Below the pieces are notes generated by a model, which saw only the letters and a program-made list of their open reading frames with translations, searched no databases and was not told where the DNA came from. From the IMG/VR virus record IMGVR_UViG_2734482545_000011: DNA of 40,605 bases; one strand, written 5' to 3'. Numbering within the stretch: the first letter of the stretch is position 1; the number at the start of each line of letters is the position of its first letter. This document shows, in pieces, positions 22,484 through 39,053 of this stretch. Origin of the DNA: a virus (Duplodnaviria; Heunggongvirae; Uroviricota; Caudoviricetes). The position numbers and the translations under genes were made by a program.

Positions 22484-23014
22484 ACAGCGAATCAGATCAA
22501 ATAAAACGCACATTTGTTAACATTTACACAAAGTCTGCGTGGGATATTCTGAAAGAATATCCATAATGTGGAGAGAATCTATTGAAGTGCATGGTGCCGG
22601 GTGCCTCCCGGTGAACAAAATGTTCGTGATACCTGTCGGCGACAGAAAAGGTTAATGGTATCACCCCACCGCACAGGGGGATTCACCATGCAGGAGTTTT
22701 CTTAGCAAACTCACTGCGCGCCCGGCAACTCCCAACCACATAAAATGCGGAGTTTGTGGCATTTATGCATATAACTCGCAGGAATTATCTTAAAAAACTG
22801 ATGTCGATCCGGATTAAAAAGAAGCAGGTCATCATCAGATGACTGGAAAAAAGGAAAACAAAAAATACTCATCATACAGTTTTGATTGCAGGGATGAGCC
22901 TGCTATGCACAATATGCAGAATATAAGCAAGATAAAAATATGCAGGCATATTATTTCGGATCTTGTTATTAACACAACCTTTTTAATAATCATTTGGCAT
23001 ACAATAAACCAGCC

Positions 23015-24298: not shown

Positions 24299-24897
24299 TA
24301 CGCAAACTCCAGTAGTTGTGCGGCCACATTTTCAACTTCCTCCTGAGAGGAGAATTTACGGAACAGAATCCAGTTCCACAGCACATTCAGTACAGATTTA
24401 TAAACCTGCTGAAACTCGACTTCGTCCATATTCGCAAAAGCGATGGATTTTGCCCGACGCCCACGGCTACCGTCCGGATAAATATGCTCGGTGTAAAATC
24501 CGGCCTGAATGGTTACCCACTCGCGGAAAGCCTCAAACGACTTTAGCAACGCCGTATCCCGGGTTCTACGAGTCGCAACGGTGTTAAGGTATTGCTCTGC
24601 GGCATCACTCAGGGCTGGCGTGTGTTCCCGACCAACTGATTCGCACAGGTAATCAACGAAACCAGACAGCAGTTCTCGTTCGCGAGGCGTGATCGCCCCA
24701 CCGACCGGAGTCCAGTAATCGAATCCCAGTTGCAGGAGTTTGAAAAAACGCTTGTGGAATGCGTAGTTACGCACACGCTTAAAGTCTGCGTGTATCCACT
24801 CACCTATTTTGATTTGATGCAGAAAATCGCAACTCTCCGGCGTCGCCGGGAGAAGTAAACCAGAAGAGGTTTGTTTGACCAGTTGTATATGCGCCAT
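24298..24897 (-). CDS. hypothetical nin-region protein
   Basis: 199-aa ORF, translationally coupled to the YbcO-like gene (start/stop overlap). Confidence 0.5.
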   Translation of the reverse strand: MAHIQLVKQTSSGLLLPATPESCDFLHQIKIGEWIHADFKRVRNYAFHKRFFKLLQLGFDYWTPVGGAITPRERELLSGFVDYLCESVGREHTPALSDAAEQYLNTVATRRTRDTALLKSFEAFREWVTIQAGFYTEHIYPDGSRGRRAKSIAFANMDEVEFQQVYKSVLNVLWNWILFRKFSSQEEVENVAAQLLEFA

Positions 24898-24955
24898 TTC
24901 TCAATCTCTCGATGGCGCAGCGCAGCAGATGCCAGTTGTTCAGGCTGACGAATAA

Positions 24956-24983
24956 AGTATAAATAAACTGGCTATGGTGTAAA
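24956..24983 (-). promoter_or_regulatory. candidate sigma70 promoter for the nin/Q block
   Basis: Minus strand TTTACA - 16 bp - TATACT, about 60 nt upstream of the 199-aa gene start, at the edge of the AT-rich island. Confidence 0.4.
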
Positions 24984-25178
24984 GCCCCACATAGCATGAA
25001 CAAACACTACATATCAAATAGCTGGTACAAGGATAGAAATACGACACTTATTATTAAAAACGATTAGATAAATTACATTTTAATGTTATGCAAAAGTTCT
25101 TTTTTATCATAACATTTCAATAAAAGCATTACAGATGCAATCATCCCGTCATCATCAATTATTTAAGGTGGTTAAACA

Positions 25179-25277
25179 TGGAAAATAACAAGTTCGCACA
25201 TCTCGCTCCTTTTTTATCCGTAATCCTTTTCGCTTGTTGTTTTATATGGGCATTATTTTTATAAAGTAGCCACATGA
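25179..25277 (+). CDS. small hydrophobic peptide ORF (32 aa)
   Basis: AAGGTGG Shine-Dalgarno 6 nt before ATG; MENNKFAHLAPFLSVILFACCFIWALFYKVAT, one predicted TM helix; in an AT-rich intergenic stretch. Below the track cutoff; coordinates approximate. Confidence 0.3.
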
Positions 25278-25672
25278 TAAGTTGCTGGAATCATATTTCC
25301 CACTCAAGTCATTAACATTTGATAAGATATATCTAAAAGGACGCCTTTACATTATTTATGCGTATATAATTTATTTATATACACAGTAAAGGTATCCTGG
25401 GAAAATATTTATCGTTAAAAAATACATCATAAATAATTAAGCTGAAATTTCAGAACACAACTAATACACACAATAAGGTTCAGTAACAGTAATCTATGTG
25501 GACTACATCGAGATTTTTTGATTAAACTTTAATAACTTATTCCTAACACACAGAATGCATAAACTAAAAGTAAAACAAATAGTTATACGAAAAACAACCA
25601 TATTTATTCTATCTTCTCCTCTAATCAACATATCAATTATGTGTTTCATAACAGCTTGACATAACCCTCCAA

Positions 25673-25695
25673 AAGATGCATTTTTAATGCATGTT
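25673..25695 (+). promoter_or_regulatory. NsrR-type 11-1-11 inverted repeat overlapping the predicted promoter of the YeaR-like gene
   Basis: AAGATGCATTT-T-TAATGCATGTT (ATGCAT ... ATGCAT), downstream of a perfect TTGACA at 25656-25661 and about 16 nt before the GGAGGAGGTGG RBS. Confidence 0.4.
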
Positions 25696-26116: not shown

Positions 26117-26267
26117 TAAATATATTGGTTCTACATTGACAGGAGACTTCAACCATAAGAAGTAATCTGAATACTTGAGCAATAAATTTACTTAAGATTA
26201 ATGAGCGCACCTTGCCGGACAAAGATAAACCAAGGTAACACCTTTTTTCTAGCCAGTATGTAATCAA

Positions 26268-26486
26268 TCAGAAAGCCGCTCCATAAGAACAACAGCAAGA
26301 CAATAAATTGCCATTACAGCCGCAATAGCCAGCGCACATTTGAGAACCAGCACGACAACCCCCTGTATTAGACGCACACCAGTCCTGATAAATATGAGGC
26401 TGTCTCGTCAGTGATTCAATACAACTATTGGGTATAGTTTCTGTGATTTTATTCTGTAGAAATGGAACACAACAACCAGTCACCAC
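26268..26486 (-). CDS. Cys/Gly-rich small ORF (about 72 aa), uncertain
   Basis: AAGGAA then 6 nt then GTG; ...CASNTGGCRAGSQMCAGYCGCNGNLLSCCCSYGAAF; 11 Cys; no signal peptide. Could be spurious. Confidence 0.25.
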   Translation of the reverse strand: MVTGCCVPFLQNKITETIPNSCIESLTRQPHIYQDWCASNTGGCRAGSQMCAGYCGCNGNLLSCCCSYGAAF

Positions 26487-26669
26487 CAGCACTTCCTTAA
26501 ATGCTCTAAGTCAGAAACAAGCCAACATTTTAGTCCGCTTTGAGCGATCTGCAGACATTGCTAGCAGCCTTCTGTGTGAATTCTCAGGGAGCAGGTCGGC
26601 ATAGCATCACGTTGAGGCTCTTACCCTACTTGTTCACACCAACCCTAACTCCACAGACTGATTCATAAA

Positions 26670-27671
26670 TTAGTAATCTGCGTGTTTCGCACTTTTCAGA
26701 AATGCTTTCATATTTTCATTAGGTCGCTCAATTTCGAAGTTACTTCCATATAACTCTTGTAATTTTGGCCATAACTTACTTAATAACCCTCTCCTGCGAT
26801 AAAATGGATGTATCCAAACGGTAGATAGGTACGGAGAATTTGCATTTGAATTGTTTATTGTGACCAGCCCAACTAAACATTGTCGATAACCACTATTATC
26901 CATTGATTGTATTTCTTCGACGAATGGATACGCGATTACATCAGTCCAACCATGATCGGTTGTATCCCATTGCATTCCGTCATGACATTCCTTCGACTGA
27001 TAGCGGCGTAAAGCTACACACGCGAGCTTTTGCCAATCTGGAGAATTAATTGTGATCTCTTCATCGTATGACGCGCCTATTGGAGCGGGTATTGGTCTGA
27101 TTAATCCAGCATGGCATTCATCATAGAACTTCATGTTTCCCTCAGAAACGTTGTGTACGTTGGGTTGCTCCATGTGTGCGCCATTCAAAAATAGCTCTGA
27201 TAGTAGTGTATCTACACTGTAATCTTTATTGATTATTGTCGGCTTAGAGTTTTTCTTATTAAGGCCGCGAGTAACGATTTTTTGATCAATGTTAACAACA
27301 TGGAATAATCCGTCGGGGAGGCTAGCGAACCACGATGGGGCATCGGACCAGAATAGCATGCCTTTTGTACTTCTTAAGAGTTTAATTAAGTTAATACAAG
27401 CTTCTTCACTAGTCTTGCCGTTGATGCGAAGTATGTTAGGACTAAAGTAATATTCATCCATATCAGGGAATGCAGCTTCGCAAAACTCCTGTACATAATT
27501 TAGCACCTGGATTCTACAGAGATCATCATAGCTGGTAATAACTAAGGGGGTATCTTCATTACTATTATGATTATCAATAATGCAATCTATAGCGAGACTT
27601 ACTGCTTTGCGTATCACTTCAGTTGAATCTAACGACTCTAAAAATTTTGTCTTTCGTGTGCGAATATCCAT
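26670..27671 (-). CDS. hypothetical protein, gene B of the AT-rich two-gene operon
   Basis: 333-aa ORF starting 15 nt after the gene A stop (AGGT RBS); AT-rich codon usage; no family recognised by eye. C-terminal ...VWIHPFYRRRGLLSKLW... only weakly recalls a GNAT motif A. Confidence 0.7.
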   Translation of the reverse strand: MDIRTRKTKFLESLDSTEVIRKAVSLAIDCIIDNHNSNEDTPLVITSYDDLCRIQVLNYVQEFCEAAFPDMDEYYFSPNILRINGKTSEEACINLIKLLRSTKGMLFWSDAPSWFASLPDGLFHVVNIDQKIVTRGLNKKNSKPTIINKDYSVDTLLSELFLNGAHMEQPNVHNVSEGNMKFYDECHAGLIRPIPAPIGASYDEEITINSPDWQKLACVALRRYQSKECHDGMQWDTTDHGWTDVIAYPFVEEIQSMDNSGYRQCLVGLVTINNSNANSPYLSTVWIHPFYRRRGLLSKLWPKLQELYGSNFEIERPNENMKAFLKSAKHADY

Positions 27672-27686
27672 GTATGACCTGCGCTA

Positions 27687-28709
27687 TTAAAATTCATGAA
27701 TGAACGGTTTGTCATCTGGTTGCAAAATGGTGGTTTTATTCGTTGCTACATTTAAACTGTTGTAGAGCATAATTGCCAGGTTCGATGCATTTTCAATCAG
27801 CGTTTCAAGATCCTGGTCTGTAATCACTACGAGGTTCCCTTCTTTATCCTTTCCACCACGATGCACTAAGTGATTTCGATTGAGGGTTGCCAATTCAATA
27901 GCTTCTATCGGACAGTCTTTTTGTACTTTTATATCGAATGTAGCTTCATAGCGGTCGATTACCTTTTTAGTGCTATGCCAGCTTGCACTGATCAAGTGTT
28001 CCTTGATTGACCTGATTAGCTCTCCCCTAATTTTCTCGATGGGTTCACCCTTGAAAGGCAACGCAGCAATATCTTTGCTTACTTTAAATTCAGTCTTACC
28101 TTTTTCTATACAATTGGCTATGTAGACATCATCTTTCTCTATAGAATTAATGAATAGCTCAACATAAAGCGTTTCCAAAGCTGTAATAACATTCGTGTAG
28201 AGCAAACTAAGCAAGTGGTTTTTTTGCTGTTGTTCAGTTTTATCTTTTGCAAGTTTTTTTATTTTATCGATATTATCAATGAATTTTAAATACGGATTAC
28301 CGGAAGACGTTACAGCGTCGTAGATATCATCATCGTACCAATCATCTATATTATTTGAGTTTCCAGACCAGTCAAAACATTGTGTTTGTAATTCATCTAC
28401 TAATTCCTCAATATACTCAGATTTAACATATTGACCGAAGATGGATTGTAGTTCTTCGCTCGCATCATACGGCCCGCCATATATGTAAGCATAGCCACCT
28501 TCTCTACTTTCATACGGACAAGCATTTGCCGGATCTTCAAAGTTTTCAAAGAACCAGTTTTTCATTACTTCGAGTTGATCTTTTTTGCTTATGTATTTTA
28601 AAGATTTTAGTGGAACTTTCTTTCCATTAACCTCGAAAACAATTTTCACGATGTAACGCTCCCTTGTATCAATTGCGCAACTATTATACCACAGCGAAAT
28701 ACAGGGCAT
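27687..28709 (-). CDS. hypothetical protein, gene A of the AT-rich two-gene operon (C-terminal HEPN-like R-N-x-x-x-H motif)
   Basis: Track ORF 27687-28778; start placed at the ATG with a perfect TAAGGAGG 6 nt upstream (MPCISLWYNSCAIDTRERYIVKIVFEVNGKK...), 340 aa; C-terminal segment EAIELATLNRNHLVHRGG contains R-N-H-L-V-H (Rx4H). Confidence 0.7.
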   Translation of the reverse strand: MPCISLWYNSCAIDTRERYIVKIVFEVNGKKVPLKSLKYISKKDQLEVMKNWFFENFEDPANACPYESREGGYAYIYGGPYDASEELQSIFGQYVKSEYIEELVDELQTQCFDWSGNSNNIDDWYDDDIYDAVTSSGNPYLKFIDNIDKIKKLAKDKTEQQQKNHLLSLLYTNVITALETLYVELFINSIEKDDVYIANCIEKGKTEFKVSKDIAALPFKGEPIEKIRGELIRSIKEHLISASWHSTKKVIDRYEATFDIKVQKDCPIEAIELATLNRNHLVHRGGKDKEGNLVVITDQDLETLIENASNLAIMLYNSLNVATNKTTILQPDDKPFIHEF

Positions 28710-28747
28710 AACCTGCCTCCTTAAACTAACATACCATGAGCCAGCAA

Positions 28748-28773
28748 TGTCCGCTATTGGCACAAAGCGGACA
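28748..28773 (-). promoter_or_regulatory. 8-bp inverted repeat upstream of gene A (possible operator)
   Basis: TGTCCGCT - 10 bp - AGCGGACA, about 40 bp upstream of the gene A start codon; no U-run follows, so not a terminator. Confidence 0.3.
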
Positions 28774-28847
28774 ACCACGCTAGCTCTCCCCTGTGCCAGA
28801 AAAATGTCAATTTACATATGAACTAATGCTCTTTGATCTAGTAACGT

Positions 28848-38852: not shown

Positions 38853-39053
38853 ATGGAGGTGTTCATGTATAAAATTACCGCCACTATTGAAAAGGAAGGT
38901 GGCACTCCTACTAACTGGACAAGATATTCAAAATCTAAACTAACGAAATCAGAATGCGAAAAAATGCTCTCAGGTAAAAAAGAAGCAGGCGTTTCCAGAG
39001 AGCAGAAAGTAAAACTGATAAATTTTAATTGCGAGAAACTTCAGTCCTCGTGA
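38853..39053 (+). CDS. ydaC: YdaC-like protein
   Basis: MEVFMYKITATIEKEGGTPTNWTRYSKSKLTKSECEKMLSGKKEAGVSREQKVKLINFNCEKLQSS; alternative start at the second ATG (38865) after GGAGGT. Confidence 0.55.
   Translation: MEVFMYKITATIEKEGGTPTNWTRYSKSKLTKSECEKMLSGKKEAGVSREQKVKLINFNCEKLQSS

What the first reader, a model, noticed from the sequence alone, without database searches (positions are those of the whole stretch)
26670..28778. AT-rich two-gene operon of unknown function in the replication-to-nin slot: best candidate for an undescribed defence or abortive-infection module
Two tightly linked minus-strand genes (A: 340 aa, perfect TAAGGAGG RBS; B: 333 aa, starting 15 nt after the A stop) sit in a visibly AT-rich island between the replication genes and the nin/Q block. 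That position is variable in lambdoid phages and is absent from the K-12 Rac gene set as I recall it. Neither protein resembles a structural, replication or lysis protein. Gene A ends with ...IEAIELATLNRNHLVHRGG..., i.e. R-N-x-x-x-H, the signature of HEPN RNase domains found in Abi, Cas13 and toxin proteins. An 8-bp inverted repeat lies in its promoter region. The composition, operon structure and location fit an acquired defence cassette.
Basis: partly seen in the sequence, partly recalled or inferred. Interest (0 to 1): 0.85.

Follow-up and report, generated by a model that had tools for sequence, protein, structure and literature searches.

The report
HEPN RNase plus acetyltransferase prophage cargo
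A 2.2-kb mobile gene cassette in a variable slot of a Rac-like E. coli prophage encodes a predicted HEPN ribonuclease of the abortive-infection type and an uncharacterised acetyltransferase; it is a reasonable but untested anti-phage candidate, and the two genes can exist without each other rather than forming an obligate pair.

Summary
Two minus-strand genes 15 nt apart lie in an AT-rich segment (38.5% GC; flanks about 50%) between the replication genes and the nin-like genes of a Rac-like prophage.

The slot after the DUF977 gene is a cargo hotspot; other prophages carry a BstA-like gene, QueH or a DUF5677 gene there. The cassette has its own conserved extended -10 promoter. It also occurs in non-phage islands beside SIR2, Mrr and McrA-like genes.

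A and B are not an obligate pair. Outside one Enterobacterales/Aeromonas clade, no sampled relative of either gene has the other adjacent. One lineage deleted A and kept the promoter and B. One E. coli strain has IS1 in B with A intact.

Most likely A is an infection-activated HEPN RNase and B is an accessory enzyme of unknown substrate. The A architecture was catalogued computationally in 2013, and prophage HEPN defences (HepS, Tha) are known. Defence function is not demonstrated. Interest is moderate.

The parts
26596..28775 (-). Mobile cassette as a unit: leader with inverted repeat, promoter, gene A, 15-nt spacer, gene B and about 75 nt of 3' tail
   Evidence: Homology with cassette copies in other genera and in other genomic contexts starts and ends here. 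Flank homology with prophages that carry other cargo resumes at about 28743 and about 26547. GC is 38.5% against about 50% in the flanks.
27687..28649 (-). Gene A, 320 aa (GTG start; the range includes the stop codon): HEPN/RES-NTD1 + HEPN protein, WP_014639476.1
28305..28649 (-). A residues 1-115: HEPN/RES N-terminal domain 1. It is the most conserved part of the protein (WFxxNFEDP...YESREGGYxYIYGGPY).
   Evidence: Pfam PF18870 E 1.9e-4 on the query and 58/64 relatives. Conservation profile. The same domain is fused to a PIN_8 nuclease in P0117.
27726..28232 (-). A residues about 140-308: HEPN domain
27861..27878 (-). Codons for R258-N-H-L-V-H263, the Rx4H catalytic motif of HEPN RNases
   Evidence: R258, H263 and R264 are invariant in 64 sequences; sequence read
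28709..28726 (-). It is probably not used and overlaps the -35 region of the conserved promoter.
   Evidence: Not conserved in diverged cassettes. PHROG 17908 uses the 340-aa form; PGAP uses 320 aa.
28683..28691 (-). Extended -10 element TGGTATAAT of the cassette's own promoter (inferred)
   Evidence: Conserved at a fixed distance from the GTG in all diverged cassette copies, including those whose upstream DNA is unrelated. The simple promoter scan missed it because the -35 is weak.
28659..28665 (-). Shine-Dalgarno AAGGGAG, 9 nt before GTG 28649
   Evidence: AAGGAGG in most copies
28748..28773 (-). 8-bp inverted repeat TGTCCGCT/AGCGGACA with a 10-nt loop, at the left edge of the module. In this window it is the core of a larger hairpin (28739-28786, dG -26.8 kcal/mol, z -4.2).
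   Evidence: Its role is unknown; an insulating terminator-like hairpin or an operator are guesses.
27672..27686 (-). 15-nt A-B spacer without a clear SD, which suggests coupled translation of B
   Evidence: The spacing is identical in nearly all loci that carry both genes; the exceptions are a 1-nt overlap in L098/L112 and two loci with a disrupted A or B reading frame.
26670..27671 (-). Gene B, 333 aa, WP_000354966.1: family-specific N-terminal domain + C-terminal GNAT acetyltransferase fold
27093..27671 (-). B residues 1-193: alpha/beta domain found only in this family
   Evidence: A profile search of 1.84 billion representatives found 23 hits, all B-family proteins or fragments of them. 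No PDB or Pfam match.
26673..27092 (-). B residues about 194-333: GNAT fold with motif A-like R292-R-R-G295-L-L and invariant Y308-G309

Best explanation
The region is a self-contained mobile cargo cassette of about 2.2 kb with its own sigma-70 promoter (extended -10). It sits in an accessory-gene hotspot just downstream of the DUF977 gene of lambdoid prophages. Gene A encodes a single-chain conflict protein: a highly conserved N-terminal HEPN/RES-NTD1 module joined to a C-terminal HEPN RNase domain. Inferred mechanism: A is made constitutively in the lysogen and is kept inactive without any antitoxin, as most relatives are solo genes. A signal of infection sensed through or relayed by the N-terminal module switches it on. 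The HEPN dimer's composite Rx4H site then cleaves RNA (tRNA or mRNA), stopping translation and aborting the infection. This parallels the prophage-encoded HEPN proteins HepS and Tha. Gene B encodes an acetyltransferase with a unique N-terminal domain that was recruited downstream of A in an Enterobacterales/Aeromonas lineage and is co-transcribed, probably translationally coupled. B is separable from A. It is most likely a second, autonomous conflict enzyme or an accessory modulator that acetylates a protein or aminoacyl-tRNA-like substrate, not an antidote that A requires. Shown: gene structure, folds, motif invariance, promoter conservation, hotspot polymorphism, mobility and separability of A and B. 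Inferred: RNase activity, activation by infection, the defence phenotype and B's substrate.
Against: There is no experimental or expression data. Neither protein matches a PADLOC model. Only 4 of 50,697 phage records encode an A relative and none encodes B. The N-terminal module of A is the best-conserved part of the protein. That is unlike the fast-evolving sensors of many phage-protein-sensing defences and leaves the trigger unexplained. Neighbourhoods of solo A and solo B are only partly defence-like, and many are ordinary. B's pyrophosphate-loop motif is imperfect (R-x-x-G-x-L, and the G is lost in some members), so even its catalytic competence is unproven. The conserved 15-nt spacing and co-divergence of A and B could mean a closer functional tie than I assume.
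Confidence: 0.55

Rival explanations
1. Enzyme-neutralised toxin-antitoxin (type VII-like) or addiction module. A is a constitutively toxic HEPN RNase, and B keeps it off by acetylating it, as MntA does to HepT by AMPylation. The pair stabilises the prophage or fires when B is lost.
For: Tight operon with fixed 15-nt spacing and no SD for B. A and B co-diverge over 84-100% and 78-100% identity. A lineage lost A but kept B, which is the direction a toxin/antidote pair tolerates. HepT toxins are among A's best structural matches. Foldseek places B nearest to protein lysine acetyltransferases.
Against: A relatives at 76% identity or less, including ones in Enterobacterales, are solo genes with no conserved neighbour. 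E. coli SF-173 carries intact A with B split by IS1. B relatives at 56% identity or less are solo and lack A. The gene order (toxin first) is unlike HepT/MntA. The evidence from natural knock-outs rests on single lineages.
Confidence: 0.12
2. Two unrelated morons that happen to be adjacent. B is the selected gene, for example an acetyltransferase that modifies a host or phage component, an anti-defence factor like the GNAT anti-CRISPR AcrVA5, or a small-molecule/antibiotic acetyltransferase. A is a separate, dispensable passenger.
For: B persists with the cassette promoter after precise loss of A in Enterobacter and Citrobacter islands. B is complete in all 209 E. coli carriers, though split by IS1 in SF-173, while A is truncated in 4. 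Both families are mostly solo.
Against: The pair is kept with identical spacing through about 20% divergence and across prophage and island contexts. A's catalytic residues are intact in every copy. Closest GNAT matches are generic, and B's neighbours give no hint of metabolism.
Confidence: 0.2
3. Phage-lifecycle function. The genes serve the prophage's own development, for example RNA processing or host take-over during lytic growth, rather than defence.
For: The genes lie in the early-right operon region, in the same orientation as the replication genes, so read-through from the early promoter is possible.
Against: They are present in only 209/5426 E. coli genomes, while the flanking phage genes are in thousands. 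They are replaced by unrelated genes in sister prophages. They occur in non-phage islands. They have their own conserved promoter. They are essentially absent from sequenced phage genomes.
Confidence: 0.08

Closest known systems
HepS of Salmonella prophage Gifsy-1 (PMC13043305)
   Same: A prophage-encoded HEPN protein with an Rx4H motif. It lies in the accessory slot after the replication genes of a lambdoid prophage, is constitutively made, has no partner gene, and is an abortive-infection anticodon nuclease.
   Different: HepS is a stand-alone HEPN domain with its motif at R100-H105; that study excluded proteins over 250 aa or with extra domains. A is 320 aa with an N-terminal HEPN/RES-NTD1 module and its motif at R258-H263, and here it is followed by a GNAT gene. 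Sequence relatedness was not tested, because the HepS sequence was not in the LT2 Gifsy-1 record.
Tha-1/Tha-2 of Staphylococcus aureus prophages (PMC11087260)
   Same: About 300 aa, an N-terminal domain of unknown function plus a C-terminal HEPN with an RNxxxH motif, prophage-encoded, and the same PDB neighbours (5yep, Csm6).
   Different: No detectable homology (hhalign probability 1.9%). Tha has a small cognate inhibitor, Ith, elsewhere in the prophage and is triggered by tail proteins. Nothing equivalent was identified here.
RiboL-PSP-HEPN and MAE_18760-type HEPN families with HEPN/RES-NTD1 (Anantharaman et al. 2013, PMC3710099; Pfam PF18735, PF18870)
   Same: This is the family to which A belongs by profile matches of its relatives. 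The NTD1+HEPN architecture was described there with a Klebsiella example, and the HEPN family was noted as distantly related to AbiD/AbiF. UniRef uses this name for A.
   Different: That description is purely computational and no member has been tested as far as I could find. The GNAT partner is not part of it.
HepT/MntA (HEPN/MNT) type VII toxin-antitoxin systems
   Same: Best structural matches of A's HEPN domain (8xdj, 5yep, 7ae2). A HEPN RNase encoded next to a transferase-type enzyme.
   Different: The partner here is a GNAT, not a nucleotidyltransferase. The order is HEPN first. A has an extra N-terminal domain. The partners are separable in nature.
GNAT toxins of TA systems (TacT, AtaT, ItaT; from general knowledge) and the GNAT anti-CRISPR AcrVA5
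   Same: B has a GNAT fold and is carried on mobile elements.
   Different: Those toxins are about 160-175 aa and have an overlapping upstream RHH antitoxin gene. B is 333 aa with a unique N-terminal domain and no conserved small upstream gene. No sequence relationship was tested.

Membership tests
HEPN superfamily (gene A) | Conserved R-x4-6-H motif | tested here: met
   R258-NHLV-H263. R258 and H263 are invariant in 64 relatives down to 26% identity.
HEPN superfamily (gene A) | All-alpha HEPN fold | tested here: met
HEPN superfamily (gene A) | Metal-independent RNase activity from a dimeric composite site | not testable with these tools
Pfam HEPN_RiboL-PSP (PF18735) | Profile match | tested here: inconclusive
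   The window protein itself gives no hit at E<=1. 31 of 64 aligned relatives match (best E 7e-11). UniRef labels the protein this way. Membership is by transitive homology only.
Pfam HEPN_RES_NTD1 (PF18870) | Profile match to the N-terminal ~100 aa | tested here: met
   The query scores 22.2 bits, E 1.9e-4, below the gathering score of 27.4. 58/64 relatives match. More distant proteins that share only this domain reach the gathering score (28.7 bits).
GNAT acetyltransferases (gene B) | GNAT fold | tested here: met
GNAT acetyltransferases (gene B) | Acetyl-CoA motif A, Q/R-x-x-G-x-G/A | tested here: inconclusive
   R292-R-R-G295-L-L297. R292 is invariant, G295 is present in most but not all members, and the last position is L/M, not G/A. 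Pfam PF00583 scores 19.9 bits against a cut-off of 20.7.
HepT/MntA type VII TA | Adjacent MNT nucleotidyltransferase antitoxin gene | tested here: not met
   The neighbour is a GNAT. Only 2 of 150 neighbours of solo A genes have an NTP_transf_2 domain.
Toxin-antitoxin pair in general | Toxin gene not maintained without its antidote; partners co-occur | tested here: not met
   A is intact with IS1-disrupted B in E. coli SF-173. 78/81 A loci lack B. The 16 B-only loci whose B is at most 56% identical lack A. Caveat: expression of A in SF-173 is unknown.
GNAT/RHH TA toxins (TacT/AtaT type) | GNAT of about 170 aa with an overlapping upstream RHH antitoxin gene | tested here: not met
   B is 333 aa with an extra domain. 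Upstream of solo B genes there is a gap of 98 nt or more in 10 of 13 loci and no recurrent small ORF.
Tha (S. aureus) | Sequence homology to Tha-1 | tested here: not met
   hhalign of the A family profile against 80alpha Tha-1: probability 1.9%.
HepS (Gifsy-1) | Stand-alone HEPN of under 250 aa with no extra domain (criterion used in PMC13043305) | tested here: not met
   A is 320 aa with an N-terminal domain.
Catalogued anti-phage systems (PADLOC-DB 2.0.0) | Significant match to a system model | tested here: not met
   Best E-value 0.01 for A and nothing for B. The library dates from 2023, so later systems are not covered.
Prophage accessory/defence hotspot cargo | Conserved flanks with alternative, unrelated occupants, some of them known defence genes | tested here: met
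   The same DUF977 and hokD-upstream/DUF1971 flanks hold QueH, a KilA-N/BstA-like gene (PADLOC E 3e-21), a 251-aa ORF, or a DUF5677 gene.
Anti-phage defence system (functional definition) | Reduces phage plating or burst when expressed | not testable with these tools
   An experiment is needed. No paper mentioning either accession was found.

The most novel reading that the evidence does not exclude
A and B together form a new kind of two-enzyme immune module in which an acetyltransferase gates or complements a HEPN RNase. For example, B might acetylate A, or A's RNA or protein target, to set the activation threshold. Alternatively B might be the first GNAT-based anti-phage effector with its own sensor domain, recruited to broaden the range of a solo HEPN defence. 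The fixed 15-nt coupling and the co-divergence of the pair would then reflect a true functional partnership that arose recently from two autonomous genes.
Probability: 0.15. Interest if true: 0.7.

Novelty: new variant of a known kind. Interest (0 to 1): 0.45.

Why it matters
If A protects against phage, it would give an experimental foothold on the widespread HEPN/RES-NTD1 + HEPN family: at least 352 species-level genomes across many phyla encode a relative of A. That family has been only a computational prediction since 2013. Its N-terminal module is unusually conserved and is shared with RES and PIN toxins, which points to a common, still unknown activation signal. It would also add the post-DUF977 slot of Rac-like and other lambdoid prophages to the list of defence hotspots usable for gene discovery. 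B is a rare family; its N-terminal domain has only 23 representatives among 1.84 billion proteins. It is found in defence-type islands, and a defence or counter-defence role for such an acetyltransferase would be new. If neither gene has a phenotype, the locus is just another pair of prophage morons.

Tried and rejected
1. Classical or type VII toxin-antitoxin pair: set aside because both families are mostly solo and natural variants lack either gene.
2. Membership of Tha: rejected by hhalign.
3. A match to any catalogued defence system: none in PADLOC.
4. Sequence relatives with solved structures: none for A or B.
5. A conserved partner for solo A or solo B: Pfam and PADLOC scans of 150 and 89 neighbouring ORFs found no recurrent family.
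6. Other architectures for B's N-terminal domain: a profile search of 1.84 billion representatives found only B-family proteins.
7. An RNA gene or riboswitch in or beside the cassette: Rfam found nothing at the gathering threshold, and only a chance-level hit at E 0.19 in a permissive scan. No tRNA was found.
9. Direct comparison with HepS: the LT2 Gifsy-1 record does not contain it.
10. The Foldseek afdb50 library was unavailable.
11. Literature searches for the accessions, for HEPN+GNAT systems and for Rac+HEPN found no description of this cassette. Brenes & Laub 2025 (Cell Host Microbe), a screen of E. coli prophage defences, could not be read, so prior experimental discovery cannot be excluded.
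Full report
**1. What is in the sequence**

The window is a Rac-like lambdoid prophage of E. coli. An identical locus in strain FORC_081 is annotated with recE, recT, kilR, sieB, ydaT, ydaU, a DUF977 gene, DUF1367/1364/1133 nin-region genes, lysis genes and trkG.

On the minus strand there is an ORF at 27687..28778 and a 333-aa ORF at 26670..27671, 15 nt apart. The segment is AT-rich:

- Cassette 38.5% GC, A 36.1%, B 39.1%.
- Replication block 49.8%, nin-like block 49.1%, whole window 45.9%.

I aligned the upstream DNA of 14 diverged cassette copies. That ATG is mutated to ATA/ACC in several copies, and the whole stretch is missing in the most divergent ones.

Three other elements are conserved in all copies:

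- the GTG at 28649 (ATG in one copy);
- an AAGGAGG-type SD 9 nt upstream of it;
- an extended -10 element (TGGTATAAT, 28691-28683).

The -10 lies between the two candidate starts.

The 8-bp inverted repeat is real (28748-55/28766-73) and is kept in most copies. It lies upstream of the promoter, at the left edge of the mobile module. In this window it forms the core of a stable hairpin (dG -26.8 kcal/mol, z -4.2), but the outer stem is not conserved.

**2. Gene A is a HEPN protein**

- Direct Pfam hits on the query are weak (HEPN_RES_NTD1, E 1.9e-4). Among 64 aligned relatives, 58 match HEPN_RES_NTD1 and 31 match HEPN_RiboL-PSP.
- R258, H263 and R264 of RNHLVHR are invariant down to 26% identity.
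- The N-terminal module (residues about 21-100) is the most conserved part of the protein. The linker and the C-terminal tail are the most variable.
- The same N-terminal module is fused to a PIN_8 nuclease in another protein. According to Anantharaman et al. 2013 it is also fused to RES domains.
- That paper already listed the NTD1+HEPN architecture, with a Klebsiella example. UniRef names the window protein 'RiboL-PSP-HEPN domain-containing protein'.

**3. Gene B**

- The AF2 model is confident (pLDDT 90.3).
- Pfam PF00583 is borderline on the query (19.9 bits against a cut-off of 20.7) and matches 18/46 relatives.
- Motif A is R292-R-R-G-L-L, so the canonical final G/A is missing.
- The N-terminal ~190 residues match nothing in Pfam or the PDB. 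In a profile search of 1.84 billion representative proteins they occur only in B-family proteins, with 23 hits.

**4. Are A and B a system?**

- A scan of one genome per species found 352 A relatives in many phyla. Of the 81 loci examined, only the three with A at 98% identity or more have B downstream. No other neighbour recurs.
- Conversely, among 77 B loci, B at 78% identity or more is usually preceded by A at exactly 15 nt. There are 46 such loci, and A (84-100%) and B (78-100%) co-diverge in them. All B at 56% identity or less are solo.
- A clade of B at 86% identity looked solo. It is in fact the cassette with a clean internal deletion of A (window 28673 joined to 27748) that keeps the promoter and B.
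- In E. coli, 209 of 5426 complete genomes carry A and 209 carry B.
- Strain SF-173 has IS1 inside B with A intact. Strain MB56 has ISSen4 between the genes. Strain AHB12 lost the 5' part of A through an IS1-associated deletion.

So the operon is a lineage-restricted union of two genes that otherwise live alone. Neither gene is indispensable for carrying the other. This argues against a classical toxin/antidote relationship. The natural knock-outs are single lineages, however, and their expression state is unknown.

**5. Genomic setting**

I searched the cassette with flanks against E. coli genomes. The DUF977 side (down to about 28743) and a 300-bp segment on the other side (26249-26559) are shared with many prophages that carry something else in between:

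- QueH plus a small ORF;
- a KilA-N protein that matches the PADLOC BstA model at E 3e-21, plus a 167-aa ORF;
- a 251-aa ORF;
- a DUF5677 protein.

The 300-bp segment lies upstream of hokD in other prophages.

The cassette also appears with different downstream phage genes (hokD, DUF968, RusA) in another lambdoid backbone. Outside phages:

- The A-B pair sits in an Aeromonas caviae relaxase/H-NS island beside cREC_REC+SIR2.
- The A-deleted form sits in an integrase-bounded island with Mrr_cat, a ScoMcrA-like HNH and Fic.
- A solo B sits in an island with TerB, a BrxC/D-like ATPase, a helicase, Mrr_cat and HEPN_Toprim_N.
- A solo A paralogue of E. coli sits in an integrase/AlpA/Rep satellite-like element. 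An Aeromonas one sits at a prophage end near SIR2_2.

Copies at over 90% identity occur in Klebsiella, Morganella, Proteus, Salmonella, Pectobacterium and others. Almost no sequenced phage genome has A, and none has B. The picture is that of mobile accessory cargo travelling with defence genes. Some neighbourhoods are ordinary.

**6. Mechanism**

The best-supported reading is that A is a single-chain, infection-activated HEPN RNase of the abortive-infection type. Two experimentally characterised prophage HEPN proteins give the precedent:

- HepS lies in the equivalent slot of Gifsy-1. It is an inactive tetramer that the phage J protein opens, and it then cuts tRNA anticodons.
- Tha of S. aureus has a similar size and layout and is triggered by tail proteins.

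A is not a member of either family. There is no homology to Tha, and HepS is defined as a stand-alone domain of under 250 aa. The unusually conserved, effector-swapping N-terminal module suggests a conserved signal or a conserved regulatory mechanism rather than a rapidly evolving phage-protein receptor. What that signal is remains open.

B's role is the weakest point. It has an independent distribution, and it survives with the cassette promoter after loss of A. I therefore treat it as an autonomous or accessory acetyltransferase. The fixed coupling to A leaves room for a regulatory partnership.

**7. Novelty and score**

The HEPN call was right and the cargo-island idea is supported. However:

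- the domain architecture of A is already in Pfam, UniProt and a 2013 survey;
- prophage-borne solo HEPN defences are now an established kind;
- nothing here shows function.

The HEPN+GNAT operon and the B family are undescribed as far as my searches reach. One relevant screen could not be read. I rate the finding a new variant of a known kind, with interest 0.45.

Noticed in passing
window 24900-25690: About 800 bp at 30.7% GC, more AT-rich than the cassette, with no ORF of 90 aa or more and no PGAP gene in the identical FORC_081 locus. It lies between the DUF1367 gene and the DUF1971 gene. Rfam found nothing there (the scan began at 24800).
   Followed up: partly
window 26249-26559: A segment 91% identical to the DNA that lies upstream of hokD in other lambdoid prophages, but no hok ORF is present in this window. 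It forms the conserved right flank of the cargo slot.
   Followed up: partly
window 28739-28786 (minus strand): A strong hairpin (dG -26.8 kcal/mol, z -4.2) between the DUF977 gene and the cassette promoter. Only the inner 8-bp stem is conserved among cassette copies. It may insulate the cassette from read-through of the replication operon.
   Followed up: partly
L171 (SF-173), L172 (O78 strain 3), L173 (MB56), L184 (AHB12): The cassette attracts IS elements: IS1 inside B, IS2 upstream of A, two ISSen4 copies flanking A, and an IS1-associated truncation of A.
   Followed up: yes
L174-L177 (E. coli prophages, same slot): Alternative cargo in the slot after the DUF977 gene: QueH (epoxyqueuosine reductase) plus a 90-aa ORF, a KilA-N/BstA-like protein plus a 167-aa ORF, a 251-aa ORF, and a 341-aa DUF5677 protein. 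Several of these are uncharacterised and could be further defence candidates.
   Followed up: partly
L159-L162 (E. coli, P0017): A second, solo paralogue of A (71% identity, 313 aa). It lies at the end of a small integrase/AlpA/Rep (REP_ORF2-G2P-like) element resembling a phage satellite, next to a resolvase and a convergent 227-aa ORF of unknown function.
   Followed up: no
P0117 (407 aa, metagenomic): The HEPN/RES-NTD1 domain occurs at the C-terminus of a PIN_8 nuclease, which extends the known set of effectors (HEPN, RES) joined to this module.
   Followed up: partly
L002 (JAIHTM010000277.1, 'Collinsella sp.' MAG): A 3.3-kb contig of an actinobacterial MAG carries the E. coli cassette at 100% identity. 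This is most likely bin contamination.
   Followed up: no
window 38871-39049(-) and 22535-22721(-): Rfam gathering-level matches to the RalA antitoxin sRNA (225 bits; the RalR/RalA type I TA of Rac) and to STnc100 sRNA (86.6 bits).
   Followed up: no
L181-L183 (Aeromonas caviae): The A-B pair lies next to a cREC_REC + SIR2 gene pair in a relaxase/H-NS mobilisable island, a compact cluster of likely defence genes.
   Followed up: no
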